Translations under genes and position numbers: made by a program | From: a virus | Taxonomy: Duplodnaviria; Caudoviricetes | Virus record (IMG/VR): IMGVR_UViG_3300020069_000003 | Span: 13,481 to 77,480 of that record | Reading direction: 5' to 3' (one strand) | Length of the DNA stretch: 64,000 nucleotides | Shown: piece by piece, positions 30,479 to 36,055 of the stretch | Numbering within the stretch: position 1 is the first letter of the stretch | How the letters are laid out: every line of letters begins with the position of its first letter | The notes under the pieces: model-generated | The model's input: only the letters and a program-made list of their open reading frames with translations | What the model was told of the DNA's origin: nothing | Database searches by the model: none

Positions 30479-32941
30479 GTGCGTAACGAGCGGGTAGAGC
30501 AGCAGTGGCTGGAGCTGTTCGAGCAGGGGGTCTGGGTGTTCCCCCTGCCCGCTGGAGGAAAGAACCCTGGGGATCTGGGGGTGAAGTGGCAGAAAACCTG
30601 GGTCGAGAAGGGGCGCAACCCCTGGCCCCAGCTGGCTGCCGCGCAGTTCGACGCCGAGGGGCTGTGGATGGCCTGCGGTCAGGTGTCCAAGCGGGTGGTG
30701 CTGGACATCGACAAGCCCGAGGCCGGAGAGTACTGGCGAGACAAGATCGGGGCCAAGGTCTACGACCGGGCACTGCGGGTCACCACTGGCAAGGGCTACC
30801 ACCTGCACTTCCGCATCCCGCCGGACGACGCCCGCGAGTGGCCCAGCCACTCCGATAACGAACTGGGGTACGACCTGCGGGGGGACGGGGGTGGTGTAGT
30901 GATCCCGCCGTCCGTACACGCTTCCGGACGTACGTACGAGTGGGCGGGCGGCGAGCTGCTCGACGTCCCGGAGGCCCTACGCCACCCCACCCGCGCGACT
31001 GCGTCCAACGTTAAATCACTGGACCGGGCGCGGGAGAAGCGGGAGCCGGGCAGCACGCTCACCGGCCTGCTGGCGGATCCGCCTAGCGAGGGCGGACGCA
31101 ACAACTGGCTGACCAAGGTGGGCGGGCATCTGGCCAAGCTGTGGCCGGGCCCGATGCAGGACGCTTATCTGCAGCTGATGCAGTACATCGGCCAGAATCT
31201 GCCGGACCCGATGGACGACGGCGAGATGGCCAAGACCGCCGAGTCGGTGTGGGATCGGGAGAAGAACCACTCGGGTGTCCTGTCGCACGAGGCAGAGTCG
31301 GGCTGGCTGGCCGGTCGCGACGGCAAGCTGTACACGCGTCGCAAGGGCGAGGACGGCAACATTCACGTGGTCGAGTGGGCAGACTTCGACGTCAAGGCCA
31401 GGCGGGTGGTGCAGGAGCAGGAAGAACGGGTGTTCTATGTCGACATCCACACCGCCCACACCACCTACCTCAACGAGCCCCTGCGGGCGGAGGTACTCGG
31501 CAGCATCAACCGCCTGAACGTCTGGCTGGCGGCTCACCACATCGGCATCGTGGGCCACCCGCAGGACCTGTGCAAGGTGGCGTACGGTACCCGCCTGATC
31601 CGCTACCTGCTGGCACAGAACCCGGAGGAGGGGCGCATAGCCGATTTCTACGGGCAGCAGGAGGACGGCTCGTTCCTTACGCCGAACGGGCTGATCGAGG
31701 AGGGTGGTGTGACGCCCCACCGGACGGTGGTACCGGCGGCCCATCTGTCCGGCTGGGTAGGGTACCACTACGGGACCTGCCCCAAGGACGAGGCGGTGGA
31801 GGTGCTGCGCGAGGTGCTGACTTTCCAGGAGGAGACTGCCGCCTCGGTGTTCGGCGCCTGGTGGGCGATGTCGATTCTGAAGGGGCGCTACCCGGCCTCT
31901 CTGTTCCCGTTCATGCTGCTGGAGGCGGGTTCGGAGTCGGGCAAGACCACCGGGTTCTTCGCCATGATGGTGGCGCTGGCAGGCTCGCGGGACGGCGCGG
32001 GCCAGCACACCCCCGCCAGCTTCCGTGACGCCGTTGCCGCCCACCGCAACGGTATCGCGTGGCTGGACGACCTGACCGACGTGTCCGGCGGGCAGGTGGT
32101 GGACATCATCCGACAGGCTACGTCGGAGGGCACCCGGGGCAAGAAAGGCCAGGACTCTAGGAAGACCGAGCGGGTGTCTCTGCTGTCTCCTATCCTGGTG
32201 TCGGGCGAGGGCTCGGGCACGATGATGTCTGAGAAGGCGATGCACGACCGGGCGGTAAAGCTGACGTTCGAGTCCCCCAAGGGGCGCCGGTCGCTGCGGG
32301 ATCCGGACCGCCCCCAGTGGGACGACGTGGTGGCCCTGACGGCGCGGTACGGGGGCCACACGTCCGGCCTCACAGCGGTGGCCGGTACCCTCGTGGCCCA
32401 GGTGCTGTCCGAGACCCCCCGTTTGTCTCTCCTGGCCTCTCTGCGGCCAGCGGGAGCCGGGCGGCACGCGGACAAGATGGCGATTCTTCGGATGGGTGCC
32501 CGCATCCTGGCGGCGGTGACCGGTGACGAGGACCACGTGAAGCGGGTGGACGACTGGGTGGAGACCCAGGTGGATACCGGCGCGGCGAACCTGGCGGTGA
32601 ATGTGATCATCCCGTGGGCGCTGCGCAGCGCAGGGGGTGGTGTACCGGTCTCGGCCCGGATGTGGCAGCCGGTGTACCTGGATGAGCGCTCCGGGGTTAT
32701 CTGGGTGTCCATCCCCCGGCTGGCGGACGCCTGGCACAACCGGCAGAACCTGTCGGCTCGGGAGCGCCAGCTGGGGACGGAGGAGGCCATCCGTACCGAG
32801 CTGCGGGCGGTGGTGGGGGACACCTTGGGCAAGACCAAGCACGTGGACGCCGAGGGCACGAAGAAGCGGTACGTGGCGCTCCCAGTGGAGCTGACCGGGA
32901 CCGTCCTGGAACGGGCGGGTGTGGACGTAGACGAAGACTGA
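30479..32941 (+). CDS. Bifunctional primase-polymerase fused to PriCT and helicase-like domains
   Basis: VFPL..GGKNP, VLDID, GYHLHF, DLRGDGGGVVIPPSVHASG, EGGRNNWL and GSESGKTT. Confidence 0.9.
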   Translation: MRNERVEQQWLELFEQGVWVFPLPAGGKNPGDLGVKWQKTWVEKGRNPWPQLAAAQFDAEGLWMACGQVSKRVVLDIDKPEAGEYWRDKIGAKVYDRALRVTTGKGYHLHFRIPPDDAREWPSHSDNELGYDLRGDGGGVVIPPSVHASGRTYEWAGGELLDVPEALRHPTRATASNVKSLDRAREKREPGSTLTGLLADPPSEGGRNNWLTKVGGHLAKLWPGPMQDAYLQLMQYIGQNLPDPMDDGEMAKTAESVWDREKNHSGVLSHEAESGWLAGRDGKLYTRRKGEDGNIHVVEWADFDVKARRVVQEQEERVFYVDIHTAHTTYLNEPLRAEVLGSINRLNVWLAAHHIGIVGHPQDLCKVAYGTRLIRYLLAQNPEEGRIADFYGQQEDGSFLTPNGLIEEGGVTPHRTVVPAAHLSGWVGYHYGTCPKDEAVEVLREVLTFQEETAASVFGAWWAMSILKGRYPASLFPFMLLEAGSESGKTTGFFAMMVALAGSRDGAGQHTPASFRDAVAAHRNGIAWLDDLTDVSGGQVVDIIRQATSEGTRGKKGQDSRKTERVSLLSPILVSGEGSGTMMSEKAMHDRAVKLTFESPKGRRSLRDPDRPQWDDVVALTARYGGHTSGLTAVAGTLVAQVLSETPRLSLLASLRPAGAGRHADKMAILRMGARILAAVTGDEDHVKRVDDWVETQVDTGAANLAVNVIIPWALRSAGGGVPVSARMWQPVYLDERSGVIWVSIPRLADAWHNRQNLSARERQLGTEEAIRTELRAVVGDTLGKTKHVDAEGTKKRYVALPVELTGTVLERAGVDVDED

Positions 32942-32950
32942 TCCCGGCCC

Positions 32951-33285
32951 TGGAACAGCCGGGTGTGTTCCATGTGCCCCCTCCCTATGTTCCGTTTGCA
33001 GCGCGTTACTGTTCTGTAACGCGCTGCAACTGTGTTTGGACACCTCATCCTACAATGGAACACACATGGAACATATATCTACTTTAAGAAGGAACATAGG
33101 TATGTTCCATGTGCTGCATAGGGTGTGACCTGCGGTGCGATACATGATGGAACGGGTGGAACAGTCTCTCGGGGAGAAGCCTCGTGTGTGTGCGCTCTCG
33201 GATGAGTGCGTGCGTGCGATATCCCCGGCTTTTTGCGGGAGGTGTTCCATCCCCCCCGGAACGGCCTCCTGGGGGCCCGTTCCCT
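32951..33285. repeat. Putative replication origin with GGAAC(A)/TGTTCC iterons
   Basis: About 12 GGAAC/GTTCC units, a GGAACATA-GG-TATGTTCC palindrome, a 14-bp hairpin and locally lower GC, directly after the primase gene. Confidence 0.6.
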
Positions 33286-33298
33286 GGGTTTTATCCGG

Positions 33299-33388
33299 GC
33301 CGGAATTGACAGCCTGGCAACTGGTCCGGTACCGTGGTCCCCAGAACGAGATGAACGGCAGTGGGTTACCCCAGTTATCGGAACCGGC
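33299..33388 (+). ncRNA. Short Y-RNA-like element
   Basis: GAGATGAACG...GGTTACC unit, with a GTTATCG 3' strand; ends uncertain. Confidence 0.45.
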
Positions 33389-33450
33389 TAGTACCGCCCG
33401 CAGCCAAATCCGTTTCTCGTTCGCAAGACAGCACAGACACACGTACATAC

Positions 33451-33514
33451 GGTCCGAATTGACGCAGATCGGTTACCTGGCATGGAGAATCCGGCCTGCA
33501 CCCGTTATTCGGAC
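33451..33514 (+). ncRNA. Short Y RNA without a tRNA-like domain (YrlB-like)
   Basis: GTCCGAATTGA pairs with TTATTCGGAC; shares CGCAGATCGGTTACC with the 33726 RNA. Confidence 0.6.
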
Positions 33515-33550
33515 GACCGTTTGAAGCACGACAGCCCCACCTGGTCTCCA

Positions 33551-33691
33551 GACCAGCCGAGATGAACGAGTGTCGGTTACCGTCTCAAAACCGGACAACG
33601 CGGGTTCGAATCCCGTCGCCGTCTCCGGACGGTGTAGTGTAGCGGCCTAACACGTTAAACCCGGCAGTCACCCCAGCTTTCTCGGCTGGTC
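33551..33691 (+). ncRNA. yrlA: YrlA-type Y RNA 1 (permuted tRNA-like domain)
   Basis: GACCAGCCGAGA/TCTCGGCTGGTC terminal stem; T arm GCGGG-TTCGAAT-CCCGT; closed acceptor hairpin CGCCGTC-TCCG-GACGGTG; D arm GTGT...ACAC. Confidence 0.85.
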
Positions 33692-33725
33692 CCACCAGGG
33701 CACGGCCACGCACCACCCCGGATCT

Positions 33726-33838
33726 ACCGGGCGAGATGAACGCAGATCGGTTACCACTGTTAATGGAGTGTTGCAGGTTCGAGTCCTGTCGCCAGCCCCC
33801 GGGCGGCGTAGCTTAACTGGCAAAGCACTTATCCCGGT
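33726..33838 (+). ncRNA. yrlA: YrlA-type Y RNA 2
   Basis: ACCGGGCGAG/CTTATCCCGGT Ro-type stem; CCA-CTGTTAA-TGG; T arm GCAGG-TTCGAGT-CCTGT; acceptor hairpin; D arm GCTT...AAGC. Confidence 0.85.
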
Positions 33839-33869
33839 CCGCACGTCCCTTTTCTCGTCCGGCCCAGGA

Positions 33870-33933
33870 GGGCCAGTAGCTCAACACGGCAGAGCGGCGC
33901 AGGTTGCGGGTTCGAACCCCGCCTGGTCCACCA
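33870..33933 (+). ncRNA. tRNA-like RNA lacking the anticodon arm, with encoded CCA
   Basis: GGGCCAG/CTGGTCC acceptor, TA, D arm GCTC...GAGC, 10-nt linker, T arm GCGGG-TTCGAAC-CCCGC, then A-CCA. Confidence 0.75.
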
Positions 33934-34007
33934 GCCCGGCCCGTAACCCCCCCCCCGGCGGGCCGGGTGTCTTATTCGCACAACGAATTGAAGGGAGCAT
34001 CACCGCC

Positions 34008-35693
34008 ATGTCTGACGCACTGTCCAGGCACAACCCGTACGATCCGCCGCAGACCCAGCCGCTGCCGGGTCGCGAAACCGAGATGGTTCGCAACCCCGAG
34101 GGCGGCTACGTCTTCGTCAAGGACGTGTGGACCCGGCTGTCCGATTTCCTGGTGCTGGGTACCGAGGGCGGGACCTACTACGCCGACGAGCGCACCCACA
34201 CCTACCAGAACATCGAGGCGGTGCGGCTCGCGCTGCTGGAGGACGGCCCCCGGGCGGTCCAGACCGCAGTGGAGTACTCCACCGGACGCCCGCCCCGCGC
34301 CCCGCGCAACCACCCGGCCCTGTACGTCGTCGCCTACGCGCTGGCGGCGGGCGACCTGGAGACCAAGCGGGCGGCGGCCAAGGCCGTGCCCAAGGTCGCC
34401 CGCACCACCGACCACCTCGCCCACCTGTTCGGCTACTGGAAGCAACTCAGCTCGAAGCCGGGCGGGCGGGGTGGTGCAGGGCGCGCCCCGGTCGGTGCGA
34501 ACTCCCGGGCGACCCGCCGTGCCTGGATCAGCTGGTTCACGGACCGCACGCCGGAGCAGGTGGCGTACACCCTGCTGAAGGGACGGTCCCGCAAGACCGG
34601 GTCGGGCGAGGACTTCAGCCCCGGACACCTGCTGTCGCTGGTCCGGCCGGTGCCGTCGAACGAGGCCGAGCAGGCGCTGTACGCACTGGCCACCGGCCGC
34701 AAGACCCCGATGGAGGTGTCGGGCCACTTCGCCGCCGCGAAGGCCTTCTACGAGGCGCAGCGTGCGGACACCCCGGCCAAGGCGGTCAAGGTGATCAACG
34801 CCTACCACGTCCCGTGGGAGTTCCTGCCGGACGAGGTGCTGAAGGACGCCAGGGTGTGGCGGGCGCTGATCCCCCACCTGGGCATGACCGCCCTGATCCG
34901 CAACCTCGCCCGGATGACCAGTCTCGGGGTGTTCGAGCCGTTCGACGAGTCGGTGGGGCGGGTGGTGTACCGACTGACCGACGCGGGCGAGCTGCATCGG
35001 GGCCGAATCCACCCGTTCGATCTGCTGCTGGCGCGTCTGGTGTACTCTTCCGGGTTCGCCCAGCCGAATCTGAAGGCACCGGCCCGTACCTGGGTGCCGG
35101 ACGGACAGATAGTCGATGCGCTGGATCTGGCGTACACGCTGGCCGTCCAGGTTGCCGACAAGTCCCCCGGCCGCCTGGTCGTCGCGGTCGACTCATCCGG
35201 TTCGATGGGCCAGATGGTCCGGCACGGCGGGTCCCACCTCGGGTCGTGCTACCACCTCGGTACGGCGGTCGCGGCCACCCTGATGCGCAGCTTCGACGGC
35301 GACTGCTACCCGGTCGAGTTCGACAGCGTCTGCAGGCCGTCGAAGCTGCGGGCGGGGATGTCGCTGGGCGAGATCTACAGCCTGCGGCACGACGGCGGCG
35401 CCACCGACTGCTCCGCCCCGATCGAGTGGGCGCTGCGGAACAACGTCGTGTGCGATGCGTTCGTGCTGATCACCGACAACGTCAGCTGGTCGGGCAACCG
35501 CCACACCTCGAAGGTCCTGGAGGACTACCGGCGCTCGATCAACCCCCAGGCGCGTGTGATCGTGTCGGCGATGGTGGCGAACGGACACTCGGTGGCCGAT
35601 CCGACGGACCCGGGTGTGGTCAACGTCGGCGGTTTCGACTCCAGCCTGCCGACCCTGATCGCGGGCTACATGCGGACCGGCGGCGCGTTCTGA
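34008..35693 (+). CDS. rsr: Ro60 / TROVE-domain RNA-binding protein (Rsr) with a vWA domain
   Basis: NPEGGYVF, FLVLGTEGGTYY, MTALIRNLARM, IHPF, VAVDSSGSM, GATDCS.PI and FVLITDN motifs. Confidence 0.97.
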   Translation: MSDALSRHNPYDPPQTQPLPGRETEMVRNPEGGYVFVKDVWTRLSDFLVLGTEGGTYYADERTHTYQNIEAVRLALLEDGPRAVQTAVEYSTGRPPRAPRNHPALYVVAYALAAGDLETKRAAAKAVPKVARTTDHLAHLFGYWKQLSSKPGGRGGAGRAPVGANSRATRRAWISWFTDRTPEQVAYTLLKGRSRKTGSGEDFSPGHLLSLVRPVPSNEAEQALYALATGRKTPMEVSGHFAAAKAFYEAQRADTPAKAVKVINAYHVPWEFLPDEVLKDARVWRALIPHLGMTALIRNLARMTSLGVFEPFDESVGRVVYRLTDAGELHRGRIHPFDLLLARLVYSSGFAQPNLKAPARTWVPDGQIVDALDLAYTLAVQVADKSPGRLVVAVDSSGSMGQMVRHGGSHLGSCYHLGTAVAATLMRSFDGDCYPVEFDSVCRPSKLRAGMSLGEIYSLRHDGGATDCSAPIEWALRNNVVCDAFVLITDNVSWSGNRHTSKVLEDYRRSINPQARVIVSAMVANGHSVADPTDPGVVNVGGFDSSLPTLIAGYMRTGGAF

Positions 35694-36055
35694 TGACCCG
35701 CCGGGACGAGTTCGTACGCTGGGACGGGGACAAGCGGGTGTCGAACCCGCTAGACCAGTGGGAGGGCGACTGGAACGGTCTGTCAGCCCGCGACCTGACC
35801 GGCCGGGAGATCGAACCCGGTATGTGGCTGGTCAAGGCCTACCAGTCTGGTCGCTCCAGCAACCTGGAGATCCGTCAGGTGCGGGAGGTCCGTACGGTCA
35901 CCTCCAAAGACTGGGACGGCAACAAGATCGTGTCCGAGCCCCGGGTGTTCCTGGACACCTCGAAGGTACCGGTGCAGTACCCCGGCCGGTGTCTGATCGT
36001 CGACTGGGATCCGGTGCTGGAGGCAGTCCGCACCCGAGCGGGCGGGGTGGTGTAA
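35693..36055 (+). CDS. Hypothetical protein (SH3-like)
   Basis: DLTGREIEPGMWLV; TGATG coupling to Ro60. Confidence 0.6.
   Translation: MTRRDEFVRWDGDKRVSNPLDQWEGDWNGLSARDLTGREIEPGMWLVKAYQSGRSSNLEIRQVREVRTVTSKDWDGNKIVSEPRVFLDTSKVPVQYPGRCLIVDWDPVLEAVRTRAGGVV

What the first reader, a model, noticed from the sequence alone, without database searches (positions are those of the whole stretch)
33299..35693. Phage Ro60 preceded by an array of at least four Y-RNA modules
Seen: four near-identical units, GAGATGAACG-N6-GGTTACC (33348, 33559, 33733) and GAATTGACG-N6-GGTTACC (33455), each followed downstream by a complementary 3' strand, (G/C)TTAT(T/C)C in three of them. Two units (33551-33691 and 33726-33838) enclose a circularly permuted tRNA core in the order T arm, loop-closed acceptor stem, D arm. 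They carry anticodon-like loops CTCAAAA (Leu) and CTGTTAA (Asn). Two units are short and have no tRNA domain. Established: Ro60 (Rsr) binds Y RNAs, YrlA RNAs mimic tRNA, and some mycobacteriophages carry Ro60 with YrlA. Inference: an expanded set of different effector domains on one Ro60 suggests a modular RNP, for example decoys for host anticodon nucleases or tethers for nucleases and repair enzymes. I do not know of such an array being characterised in a phage.
Basis: partly seen in the sequence, partly recalled or inferred. Interest (0 to 1): 0.88.

Follow-up and report, generated by a model that had tools for sequence, protein, structure and literature searches.

The report
Phage Ro60 with four Y RNAs
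An uncultured soil phage of actinobacteria carries the RNA-binding ring protein Ro60 behind a small operon of four partner "Y RNAs", two of which imitate tRNA; this is real, but it is a larger-than-usual case of an arrangement already known in bacteria and phages.

Summary
Four units sharing GA(G/A)(A/T)TGA(A)CG-N6-GGTTACC lie at 33344-33862 on the + strand, upstream of a full-length Ro60 gene (34008-35693). A covariance model built from relatives finds all four and nothing else in the 77-kb phage. Its helices co-vary strongly: 94% of cells paired against 65% shuffled, and 28 of 30 pairs have compensatory changes.

Two units are short stem-loop Y RNAs. Two are YrlA-type, with a T arm, a closed acceptor stem and a D arm.

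Unit 4 ends at 33862, not 33838.

The arrangement is not exceptional:
- Five related phages have the same array.
- Other Ro60 loci carry 3-7 units, and cultured actinophages carry 2-5.
- Published work describes at least two Y RNAs per locus, including a phage (phiLo).
- This scan has found similar arrays on other DNA.

The decoy idea is untested.

- one promoter (33306);
- a tRNA-like RNA without an anticodon arm (33870-33933);
- a leader that looks like a circularly permuted Y RNA overlapping the Ro60 ribosome-binding site, suggesting autoregulation.

Verdict: new member of a known kind, of moderate interest.

The parts
33306..33335 (+). Promoter-like site, TTGACA-18 nt-TACCGT. The predicted start is about 7 nt downstream, at the 5' end of unit 1.
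   Evidence: Read from the sequence. The same TTGACA/G-18-TAnnnT layout lies directly before the first unit in L008, L002, L003 and L010. The stricter sigma-70 consensus scan did not call it.
33344..33422 (+). Unit 1, a short Y RNA. Closing helix GAACGAGA/TCTCGTTC, motif GAUGAACG, a 9-bp second helix GGCAGUGGG/CCCGCAGCC, and GGUUACC at the apex.
   Evidence: Closing helix found by script. Model R1 scores 25.9 bits, E 9e-6, although the unit was not in the training set. Orthologues in L008, L002 and L003 carry compensatory changes.
33449..33520 (+). Unit 2, a short Y RNA. Helix GUCCGAAU/AUUCGGAC, extendable to ACGGUC...GACCGU, with motif UUGACG and GGUUACC.
   Evidence: R1 scores 21.1 bits, E 1e-4, and the unit was not in the training set. 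The orthologue is L008 368-428, with CCCGAAU/AUUCGGG.
33551..33691 (+). Unit 3, a YrlA-type Y RNA. 12-bp closing helix, GAUGAACG, an inner helix, a hairpin with loop CUCAAAA, T arm 33600-16, closed 7-bp acceptor stem 33617-34 and D arm 33637-53.
   Evidence: R1 scores 128 bits. RNAfold z = -4.1. The Rfam YrlA partial match is 20.6 bits.
33727..33862 (+). Unit 4, a YrlA-type Y RNA of a second paralogue class. Closing helix CCGGGCGAGA/UCUCGUCCGG, hairpin CCA-CUGUUAA-UGG, T arm 33773-89, closed acceptor stem 33790-808 and D arm 33811-26.
   Evidence: R1 scores 109 bits. Rfam YrlA scores 28.9 bits, below the gathering score of 69.
33870..33933 (+). tRNA-like RNA lacking the anticodon arm. It has a 7-bp acceptor stem with G3:U70, A73 and an encoded CCA, and intact D and T arms.
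   Evidence: Rfam tRNA scores 46.2 bits, with 13 model positions of the anticodon arm missing. ARAGORN does not call it. A complete tRNA occupies this slot in L008 (Arg), L002 (Asp) and L010 (Asp).
33934..33968 (+). Strong 11-bp hairpin with a C-rich loop. It could be a terminator or attenuator, or the 'second helix' of a permuted Y module.
   Evidence: A comparable strong hairpin directly precedes the leader motif in L003, L008, L010 and L002. The poly-C length varies between runs.
33971..33997 (+). Ro60 leader, CUUAUUCG-cacaa-CGAAUUGAAGGGAG. It holds the two strands of a unit-2-type Ro60-binding helix in reverse order, closed by a loop and running into the Shine-Dalgarno sequence.
   Evidence: The leader's 5'-strand motif matches each phage's own Y units (8-11 nt) better than those of the other lineages (5-7 nt).
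34008..35693 (+). Ro60 (Rsr) gene, 561 aa.
   Evidence: Pfam TROVE and vWA_Ro60, PHROG 850, PDB 1YVP, 9NEN and 2NVO. The nearest cellular relatives are Actinomadura and Nonomuraea at 45-48% identity.

Best explanation
The stretch is a Y-RNA operon with its Ro60 gene.

Inferred: one promoter at 33306 drives a precursor that carries four Y RNAs, an anticodon-armless tRNA-like element and, by read-through, the Ro60 mRNA.

Shown: each Y RNA is closed by a helix formed by its own 5' and 3' ends. Next to that helix lies the conserved GNYGAA-type motif, followed by a second helix and UUAYC. This is the Ro60-docking module known from bacterial and animal Y RNAs.

Shown: beyond the shared module the four units differ. 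Two end in small loops. Two carry a circularly permuted tRNA-like domain, and these belong to two paralogue classes conserved across the phage clade.

Inferred from characterised systems: host RNases, including RNase P at the tRNA-like parts, cut the precursor. Phage Ro60 binds each Y RNA. The variable domains tether the ring to host partners such as PNPase, or gate its cavity, so the phage redirects host RNA decay or quality control during infection.
For: Ro60 identity.

Four units, on the + strand only:
- The composite motif occurs 3 times here against 0.26 expected.
- Model R1, trained on 10 tRNA-like units from 5 phages, scores 128, 109, 25.9 and 21.1 bits here. The next-best hit on either strand is 9.8 bits.
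- These four are the top hits in the whole 77-kb genome.

Covariation:
- 20 of 32 pairs are compensatory in 10 sequences.
- In 36 sequences 94.2% of cells pair against 65.3% shuffled (0 of 500 shuffles reach this). 28 of 30 pairs have double changes. Slid controls pair at about 41%.

Synteny: the same promoter-array-tRNA-leader-Ro60 order occurs in L008, L002, L003 and L010.

Association with Ro60: all 72 R1 hits in 83 Ro60 loci are on the Ro60 strand, and nearly all lie upstream.

Not coding: the overlapping ORFs give only short translated matches to the relatives, and those matches switch frame. GC is 0.55-0.65 against 0.70 in genes.

Weak hint of RNA abundance: in one metatranscriptome run the only high-depth contig in 10 kb is 33353-33859, at depth 26 against 5 or less beside it.

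Literature:
- M. smegmatis YrlA and YrlB are cut from one precursor upstream of rsr.
- D. radiodurans Yrn2, tRNA-Asp and Yrn1 come from one precursor.
- YrlA is an RNase P substrate (all three PMC4201824).
- Phage phiLo Ro60 binds two upstream Y-like RNAs and forms a complex with host PNPase (PMC12135203).
Against: - No unit reaches Rfam's YrlA gathering score: 28.9 and 20.6 bits against 69.
- The motif here is GAUGAACG or UUGACG, not the exact published GNCGAA.
- Ro60 binding, discrete transcripts and any partner such as PNPase are not shown for this phage.
- The RNA-library evidence rests on contigs only. A sister library from the same sample holds the whole phage at flat depth, which looks like DNA.
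- The strong hairpin at 33934-68 may terminate transcription before Ro60, so co-transcription with Ro60 is an inference.
Confidence: 0.85

Rival explanations
1. The tRNA-like units, with their anticodon-like loops, act mainly as decoys or sponges for host tRNA-targeting defences such as anticodon nucleases or tRNA-modifying toxins. Ro60 serves only as a stabiliser.
For: The hairpins carry 7-nt loops with U at position 2 and A at position 6. The class-B units of five phages keep CU-N-UU-AA, which resembles a Lys or Asn anticodon loop, on co-varying 3-4 bp stems. The armless tRNA-like RNA next door keeps alanine identity elements.
Against: - The same kind of loop is seen in about half of 36 YrlA-type RNAs from many, probably cellular, Ro60 loci. 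The M. smegmatis YrlA primer sequence in PMC4201824 shows it too. It is therefore a family trait, not a phage adaptation.
- The stems are 3-4 bp, not the 5 bp of an anticodon stem.
- The hairpin sits at the variable-arm position.
- No nuclease or defence context was found, and the genome has no RtcB or CCA-adding enzyme.
Confidence: 0.1
2. The array is not a set of separate RNAs. It is one long structured leader that only regulates Ro60 expression in cis.
For: There is a single promoter-like site and no obvious promoter between the array and Ro60. The leader element overlaps the ribosome-binding site.
Against: - Units are separated by unconserved spacers of about 30 nt.
- Each unit is a self-contained fold closed by its own helix.
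- Unit number and order vary between relatives.
- Homologous units in M. smegmatis and D. radiodurans are processed into discrete Ro60-bound RNAs (PMC4201824).
- A strong hairpin separates the array from the gene.
Confidence: 0.07
3. The units are decayed or rearranged tRNA genes, or tandem tRNA remnants, with no function of their own.
For: The T and D arms closely resemble tRNA, and real tRNAs neighbour the arrays in relatives. Chen et al. warn that dimeric tRNAs can mimic YrlA.
Against: - The acceptor stem is closed by a 4-6 nt loop inside one unit, so no two-tRNA layout exists.
- The non-tRNA helices and the motif are conserved, with compensatory changes, over Ro60 identities of 57-77% and beyond.
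- The short units contain no tRNA part at all.
Confidence: 0.03

Closest known systems
YrlA/YrlB of Mycobacterium smegmatis and YrlA of mycobacteriophages such as ET08 (Chen et al. 2014, PMC4201824; Rfam RF02553; structure in Wang et al. 2018, bioRxiv 10.1101/312249)
   Same: - It lies upstream of Ro60 on the same strand.
- It has a 5' GNCGAA-type motif and a YUAY (here UUAC) before a variable-arm hairpin.
- The order is T arm, closed 7-bp acceptor stem, D arm.
- A short second Y RNA sits beside the tRNA-like one, and a polycistronic precursor is likely.
- My model finds one YrlA-type plus one short unit in ET08, Tonenili and Sparky.
   Different: - This phage has four units, two tRNA-like paralogues and two short, instead of two.
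- Scores are far below Rfam's gathering threshold.
- The motif has U where the consensus has C.
- Ro60 is only about 33-35% identical to mycobacteriophage Ro60.
Thermus phage phiLo Ro60 with Yrl1 and Yrl2 (Nucleic Acids Res 2025, PMC12135203)
   Same: A phage-encoded Ro60 has several Y-like RNAs directly upstream, sharing a stem, a bulge with the CGAA motif and a second stem. For phiLo, binding to phage Ro60 and a ternary complex with host PNPase were shown.
   Different: phiLo has two units, and that paper does not use the term 'tRNA-like' (0 occurrences). The host lineage is different. Nothing has been tested biochemically for this phage.
Deinococcus radiodurans Yrn1/Yrn2 and the Ro60-Y RNA-PNPase complex (RYPER)
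   Same: Several Y RNAs and a tRNA (tRNA-Asp) are made as one precursor upstream of rsr. Relatives L002 and L010 also carry tRNA-Asp at the end of the array.
   Different: Yrn1's tRNA-like part is oriented differently. In this phage the tRNA in that slot has lost its anticodon arm.
Animal Y RNAs and nematode stem-bulge RNAs (Rfam RF01656)
   Same: The 5' and 3' ends pair to form the Ro60-binding helix with a conserved 5'-strand motif. Short units in two other Ro60 loci (L060, L072) reach the RF01656 gathering score.
   Different: The window's own short units do not match RF01656. There is no polymerase III context.

Membership tests
Ro60/Rsr (TROVE family) | TROVE HEAT-repeat ring plus a C-terminal vWA domain, at full length | tested here: met
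   PF05731 at 2e-20 and PF25045 at 6.6e-36. Alignment covers residues 15-551 against 1YVP and 3-556 against 2NVO.
Bacterial/phage Y RNA (YrlA-like, Chen et al. 2014) | Encoded within 4 kb of Ro60 on the same strand | tested here: met
   The units lie 146-664 nt upstream on the + strand. All 72 model hits in 83 loci are on the Ro60 strand.
Bacterial/phage Y RNA (YrlA-like, Chen et al. 2014) | GNCGAAN0-1G motif near the 5' end, next to a helix formed by the 5' and 3' ends | tested here: inconclusive
   The helix is present and co-varies. The motif here is GAUGAACG (U for C) in three units and AUUGACG in one. Orthologous units in L002 and L003 carry the exact form, GACGAACG and GCCGAACG.
Bacterial/phage Y RNA (YrlA-like, Chen et al. 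2014) | tRNA-like domain in the order variable-arm hairpin, T arm, closed acceptor stem, D arm, with YUAY before the hairpin | tested here: met
   Units 3 and 4 have this layout. Pairs in the T arm, acceptor stem and inner helix co-vary, and UUAC lies within GGUUACC.
Rfam RF02553 (YrlA) | Score at or above the curated gathering threshold of 69 bits | tested here: not met
   Scores are 28.9 bits (33744-33843) and 20.6 bits (33599-33653). None of 20 related loci reaches the threshold either. I therefore file the units as divergent YrlA-type RNAs, not as RF02553 members by score.
Bacterial/phage Y RNA | Discrete stable transcripts bound by Ro60 | not testable with these tools
   The only hint is a 507-nt contig, 33353-33859, at depth 26 in one RNA library, against 5 or less in the flanks. 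Contigs cannot show RNA ends or binding.
tRNA (for 33870-33933) | Complete cloverleaf including an anticodon arm | tested here: not met
   The Rfam alignment lacks 13 positions of the anticodon arm. ARAGORN makes no call.

The most novel reading that the evidence does not exclude
The locus is a self-balancing RNP operon. The Ro60 leader (33934-33997) is a circularly permuted Y RNA made of a strong hairpin, the 3'-strand motif, a closing loop and the 5'-strand motif running into the Shine-Dalgarno sequence.

Free Ro60 would bind its own mRNA there and block translation, and the four Y RNAs would relieve this by titrating Ro60. I have not seen such autoregulation by a partner-RNA mimic described for any Ro60.

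The anticodon-armless element with alanine identity would be kept as an RNase P/CCA processing signal, or as a chargeable non-decoding RNA, rather than being a dead tRNA.
Probability: 0.35. Interest if true: 0.6.

Novelty: new member of a known kind. Interest (0 to 1): 0.38.

Why it matters
It adds a clean, comparatively well-supported case of a phage that brings both Ro60 and a diversified set of Y RNAs. The phage is complete (77 kb) and belongs to a clade of at least five genomes.

It also shows that current Rfam thresholds miss these RNAs, and that genome records sometimes annotate them as small proteins or pseudo-tRNAs.

The clade gives natural variation for asking what the different Y-RNA heads recruit:
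- the number and order of units;
- two tRNA-like paralogue classes;
- a tRNA slot that holds Arg, Asp or an armless alanine-type element.

The leader that mimics the Ro60-binding helix offers a simple, testable model for how the Ro60 level could be matched to the Y-RNA level. None of this changes the known picture of Ro60-Y RNA biology unless the autoregulation or the armless tRNA-like RNA proves functional.

Tried and rejected
- Megablast of 33100-35700 against GenBank phages gave no match.
- The genome-contig scan with the Ro60 alignment found no relative.
The contigs of closer Ro60 relatives, P0002 at 88% and P0003-P0027, several on 73-75 kb contigs, could therefore not be fetched. This limits the test of the armless tRNA-like RNA and of the leader.
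- The RNA libraries are contigs only. One holds the entire phage as a 77,367-nt contig at flat depth, so presence in an RNA library does not show transcription. No start or end places could be read.
- The leader mimic was looked for in more distant Ro60 loci and in ET08, Sparky and Cashline. No clear equivalent was seen, except a possible 3'-motif-like CUUUGUUC before the ribosome-binding site in L020 and L024.
- In the window alone the leader match is weak. An 8-nt match has P about 0.04 against shuffles, and 3 of 24 control leaders reach 8 nt.
- I considered folding 33903-33993 as a further YrlA-like unit (R1 local hit, 16.6 bits). I dropped it because L008 does not conserve it.
- The overlapping ORFs 33135-33524 (+) and 33050-33448 (-) were rejected as genes, because relatives show only fragmentary matches that shift frame.
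- The small protein downstream of Ro60 has no Pfam or PHROG hit, and its model has no significant PDB match.
- The phage encodes no RtcB and no CCA-adding enzyme.
- Anticodon-armless tRNA-likes found in four other viral contigs have no Ro60 nearby, so they say nothing about this locus.
Full report
**What the window is.** It is the last 64 kb of a complete 77,480-bp IMG/VR virus record with direct terminal repeats. The finding lies in the replication module. In order, that module holds a PD-(D/E)XK nuclease, an AAA_24 ATPase, a primase-polymerase (30479-32941), the non-coding stretch in question, Ro60, two small genes, a sigma/HTH-like protein, a DinG-type helicase, an RNase H-like protein, lysis genes and a family A DNA polymerase.

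**Ro60.** The gene at 34008-35693 encodes 561 aa. It has TROVE and vWA_Ro60 domains and aligns over its full length with Xenopus, human and Deinococcus Ro60.
- It is under 35% identical to the Ro60 of 361 GenBank phage records, mostly Mycobacterium and Streptomyces phages.
- It is 57-88% identical to about 25 metagenomic proteins, several on 73-77 kb contigs.
- It is 45-48% identical to Ro60 of Actinomadura, Nonomuraea and related Streptosporangiales. That suggests the host lineage.

**Checking the observation.** TGAMCG-N6-GGTTACC occurs three times in 64 kb, all in this array, against 0.26 expected.

A script that looks for the helix between the 5' flank of each GGTTACC and downstream sequence finds these closing helices:

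| Unit | Span | Closing helix |
|---|---|---|
| 1 | 33344-33422 | GAACGAGA/TCTCGTTC |
| 2 | 33452-33514 | GTCCGAAT/ATTCGGAC |
| 3 | 33551-33691 | GACCAGCCGAGA/TCTCGGCTGGTC |
| 4 | 33727-33862 | CCGGGCGAGA/TCTCGTCCGG |

Folding the whole 720-nt stretch recovers units 1-3 as separate domains.

**Relatives.** Five related phage loci have the same layout upstream of their Ro60. They are L008 (Ro60 77% identical), L010 (61%), L002 (59%) and L003 (57%), plus fragments L009 and L011. The layout is a TTGAC(A/G)-18-TAnnnT promoter-like site directly before the first unit, then 3-5 units, usually a tRNA, a strong hairpin, a short leader and the gene.

**Covariation in the tRNA-like units.** I aligned the ten tRNA-like units of the five phages.
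- They fall into two paralogue classes, with D loops AGCGGCCUAA and AAYUGGCARA. Both classes are present in four of the five phages (L003's second tRNA-like unit is intermediate), and their order differs in L002.
- RNAalifold predicts 32 pairs, 20 of them with compensatory changes.

**Covariance model R1.** I built R1 from that alignment.
- In the window it scores 128 and 109 bits on units 3 and 4.
- It scores 25.9 bits (E 9e-6) and 21.1 bits (E 1e-4) on the short units 1 and 2, which were not used to build it.
- The next-best hit on either strand is 9.8 bits.
- These four are also the best hits in the whole phage genome.
- Across 36 hits from 23 loci, 94.2% of cells pair against 65.3% in shuffles (0 of 500 shuffles reach this). 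28 of 30 pairs show double changes. Sliding the partner columns drops pairing to about 41%. That alignment was fitted to the model, which inflates pairing somewhat, but the margin is large.
- The short units also share a co-varying 9-bp second helix: GGCAGUGGG, GGCAGCGGG, CGCAAUGGG, GACCGUGGG and GGACGUGGG, each with its own complement.

**The stretch is not coding.** Its GC content is 0.55-0.65 against about 0.70 in genes. The overlapping ORFs give only short translated matches to relatives, and those matches change frame.

**What the units are.** They match the published description of bacterial Y RNAs (PMC4201824):
- a motif of the GNCGAAN0-1G type near the 5' end, next to a helix made by the two ends;
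- a conserved YUAY (here UUAC, inside GGUUACC) opening a variable-arm hairpin;
- then a T arm, a loop-closed acceptor stem and a D arm.

The motif here has U in place of C (GAUGAACG). Orthologous units in L002 and L003 have the exact form.

Rfam's YrlA model sees units 4 and 3 at only 28.9 and 20.6 bits, against a gathering score of 69. It calls no unit in 20 related loci. They are therefore divergent YrlA-type RNAs that standard annotation would miss.

As in M. smegmatis YrlA, which RNase P cleaves and which receives CCA in vivo, unit 3 has a 7-bp acceptor stem. Its closing loop begins UCC.

**How unusual the array is.** It is not unusual.

| Locus or phage | Units found by R1 |
|---|---|
| L015 | six, plus a seventh seen by eye |
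| L060 | four |
| L020, L024, L028, L079, L006 | three each |
| ET08, Tonenili, Sparky | one tRNA-like and one short |
| Cashline | two tRNA-like |
| Gilson | three |
| Trina | five |

- Across 83 Ro60 loci, R1 finds 72 hits, all on the Ro60 strand.
- Some of those units are annotated as small CDSs or as 'tRNA-OTHER'.
- Chen et al. listed 355 YrlAs in 254 bacteria and 22 phages, and found at least two Y RNAs in each species studied.
- Thermus phage phiLo has two Y-like RNAs upstream of its Ro60. They bind Ro60 and form a complex with host PNPase.
- Earlier notes of this scan report similar arrays on other DNA.

**Expression.** Rhizosphere metatranscriptome runs hold the stretch.
- In one run the whole phage is a single 77,367-nt contig at flat depth, which looks like DNA.
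- In a second library from the same sample, the only high-depth contig within 10 kb spans 33353-33859, almost exactly units 1-4. Its depth is 26, against 5 or less on either side.
- This is a weak hint of abundant array RNA, no more.

**Mechanism.**
- Shown: the modular anatomy, its conservation and its linkage to Ro60.
- Inferred from characterised systems: a single precursor is processed, each unit docks on Ro60 through the shared module, and the differing heads tether the ring to host factors or gate it.
The 7-nt loops with U at position 2 and A at position 6 are common among YrlA-type RNAs from many loci.

1. The element at 33870-33933 is a tRNA-like RNA with perfect acceptor, D and T arms, G3:U70, A73 and an encoded CCA, but no anticodon arm.
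   - L008 has tRNA-Arg in the same slot, L002 and L010 have tRNA-Asp, and L003 has nothing.
   - It may be a decayed tRNA-Ala.
   - It may be a retained processing signal. D. radiodurans also has a tRNA inside its Y-RNA precursor.
   - It may be a chargeable non-decoding RNA.
   - With one sequence I cannot tell which.

2. The Ro60 leader holds, in reverse order, the two strands of a unit-2-type docking helix: CUUAUUCG, a loop, then CGAAUUGAAGGGAG. It runs into the Shine-Dalgarno sequence and is preceded by a strong hairpin, so the whole resembles a circularly permuted Y RNA.
   - Each of the five phages has this arrangement, built from its own motif type.
   - Leader-to-unit matches are 8-11 nt within a lineage and 5-7 nt between lineages.
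   - The L003 leader hairpin differs from its unit 1 by a compensatory G-C to C-G change.
   - In the window alone the match is only marginally significant. No clear equivalent was seen in distant loci.
   - I rate Ro60 autoregulation at about one in three.
   - Two first-reader notes on this window, seen after I had reached these points, make the same two observations.

**Verdict.** The Y-RNA reading is well supported. The claim of an exceptional array is not supported. I file this as a new member of a known kind, with two attached features worth a separate test.

Noticed in passing
window 33870-33933: A 64-nt tRNA-like RNA without an anticodon arm. It keeps G3:U70, A73 and an encoded CCA, and intact D and T arms. 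Relatives carry tRNA-Arg or tRNA-Asp in the same slot.
   Followed up: partly
window 33934-33997: The Ro60 leader resembles a circularly permuted Y RNA: a strong hairpin, the 3'-strand motif, a loop, and the 5'-strand motif overlapping the Shine-Dalgarno sequence. It is conserved in five phages, each with its own motif type. It may allow autoregulation.
   Followed up: partly
window 32951-33249: Seven of the window's 21 TGGAACA copies cluster here, in both orientations, where GC dips to 0.43. The cluster lies between the primase-polymerase terminator and the Y-RNA promoter. It could be iterons of an origin, or operators. L002 has a different repeated word (ATGACG) at the same place.
   Followed up: partly
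window 35693-36055: A 120-aa gene overlaps the Ro60 stop codon (TGATG). It is conserved behind Ro60 in L008, L010, L002 and L009 at 51-82% identity. It has no Pfam or PHROG hit. The AlphaFold model (pLDDT 72) is a small beta-rich fold with no significant PDB match. It could be a Ro60 partner.
   Followed up: partly
L002 2411-2511: An extra structured unit inside the array has a long closing helix and GAGCAGCAAG...CCAACCA, but no GGTTAYC and no clear GNCGAA. It looks like a second RNA class co-transcribed with the Y RNAs.
   Followed up: no
L008 1004-1085: A possible fifth Y-like unit lies between the tRNA-Arg and the Ro60 leader: CCGGCGUCCCGCCGAAAGCG...GUAAGCGGGACGCCGG. The window has no counterpart.
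   Followed up: no
L094 (ET08) 1195-1446; L098 (Trina) 2065-2416: In GenBank records, Y-like units found by my model overlap an annotated 'hypothetical protein' (ET08 gp219) and a 'tRNA-OTHER' pseudogene (Trina). These annotations are probably wrong.
   Followed up: partly
alignment A3 (36 YrlA-type RNAs from 23 loci): About half of the variable-arm hairpins have 7-nt loops of the form C-U-NNN-A-A/C on 3-4 bp stems, for example CUUCUAA, CUCAUAA and CUNUUAA. This anticodon-loop look is a family trait. In the sections of Chen et al. 2014 that I read, this hairpin is described only as 'less-conserved', with no mention of anticodon-like loops.
   Followed up: partly
L088, L089, L090, L091: Four other viral contigs, two of them proviruses, carry contiguous tRNA-like elements with D and T arms but no anticodon arm. 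None has a Ro60 gene.
   Followed up: partly
L011 about 130-175: A 14-nt direct repeat (ATGACCCGCACCCG) duplicates the start of the Ro60 reading frame just upstream, flanking the CGAGTTGAAGGAG leader motif.
   Followed up: no
window 33946-33956: The poly-C loop of the hairpin varies by one C between runs. It is also the break point of a circularly permuted 77,367-nt assembly of the phage.
   Followed up: no
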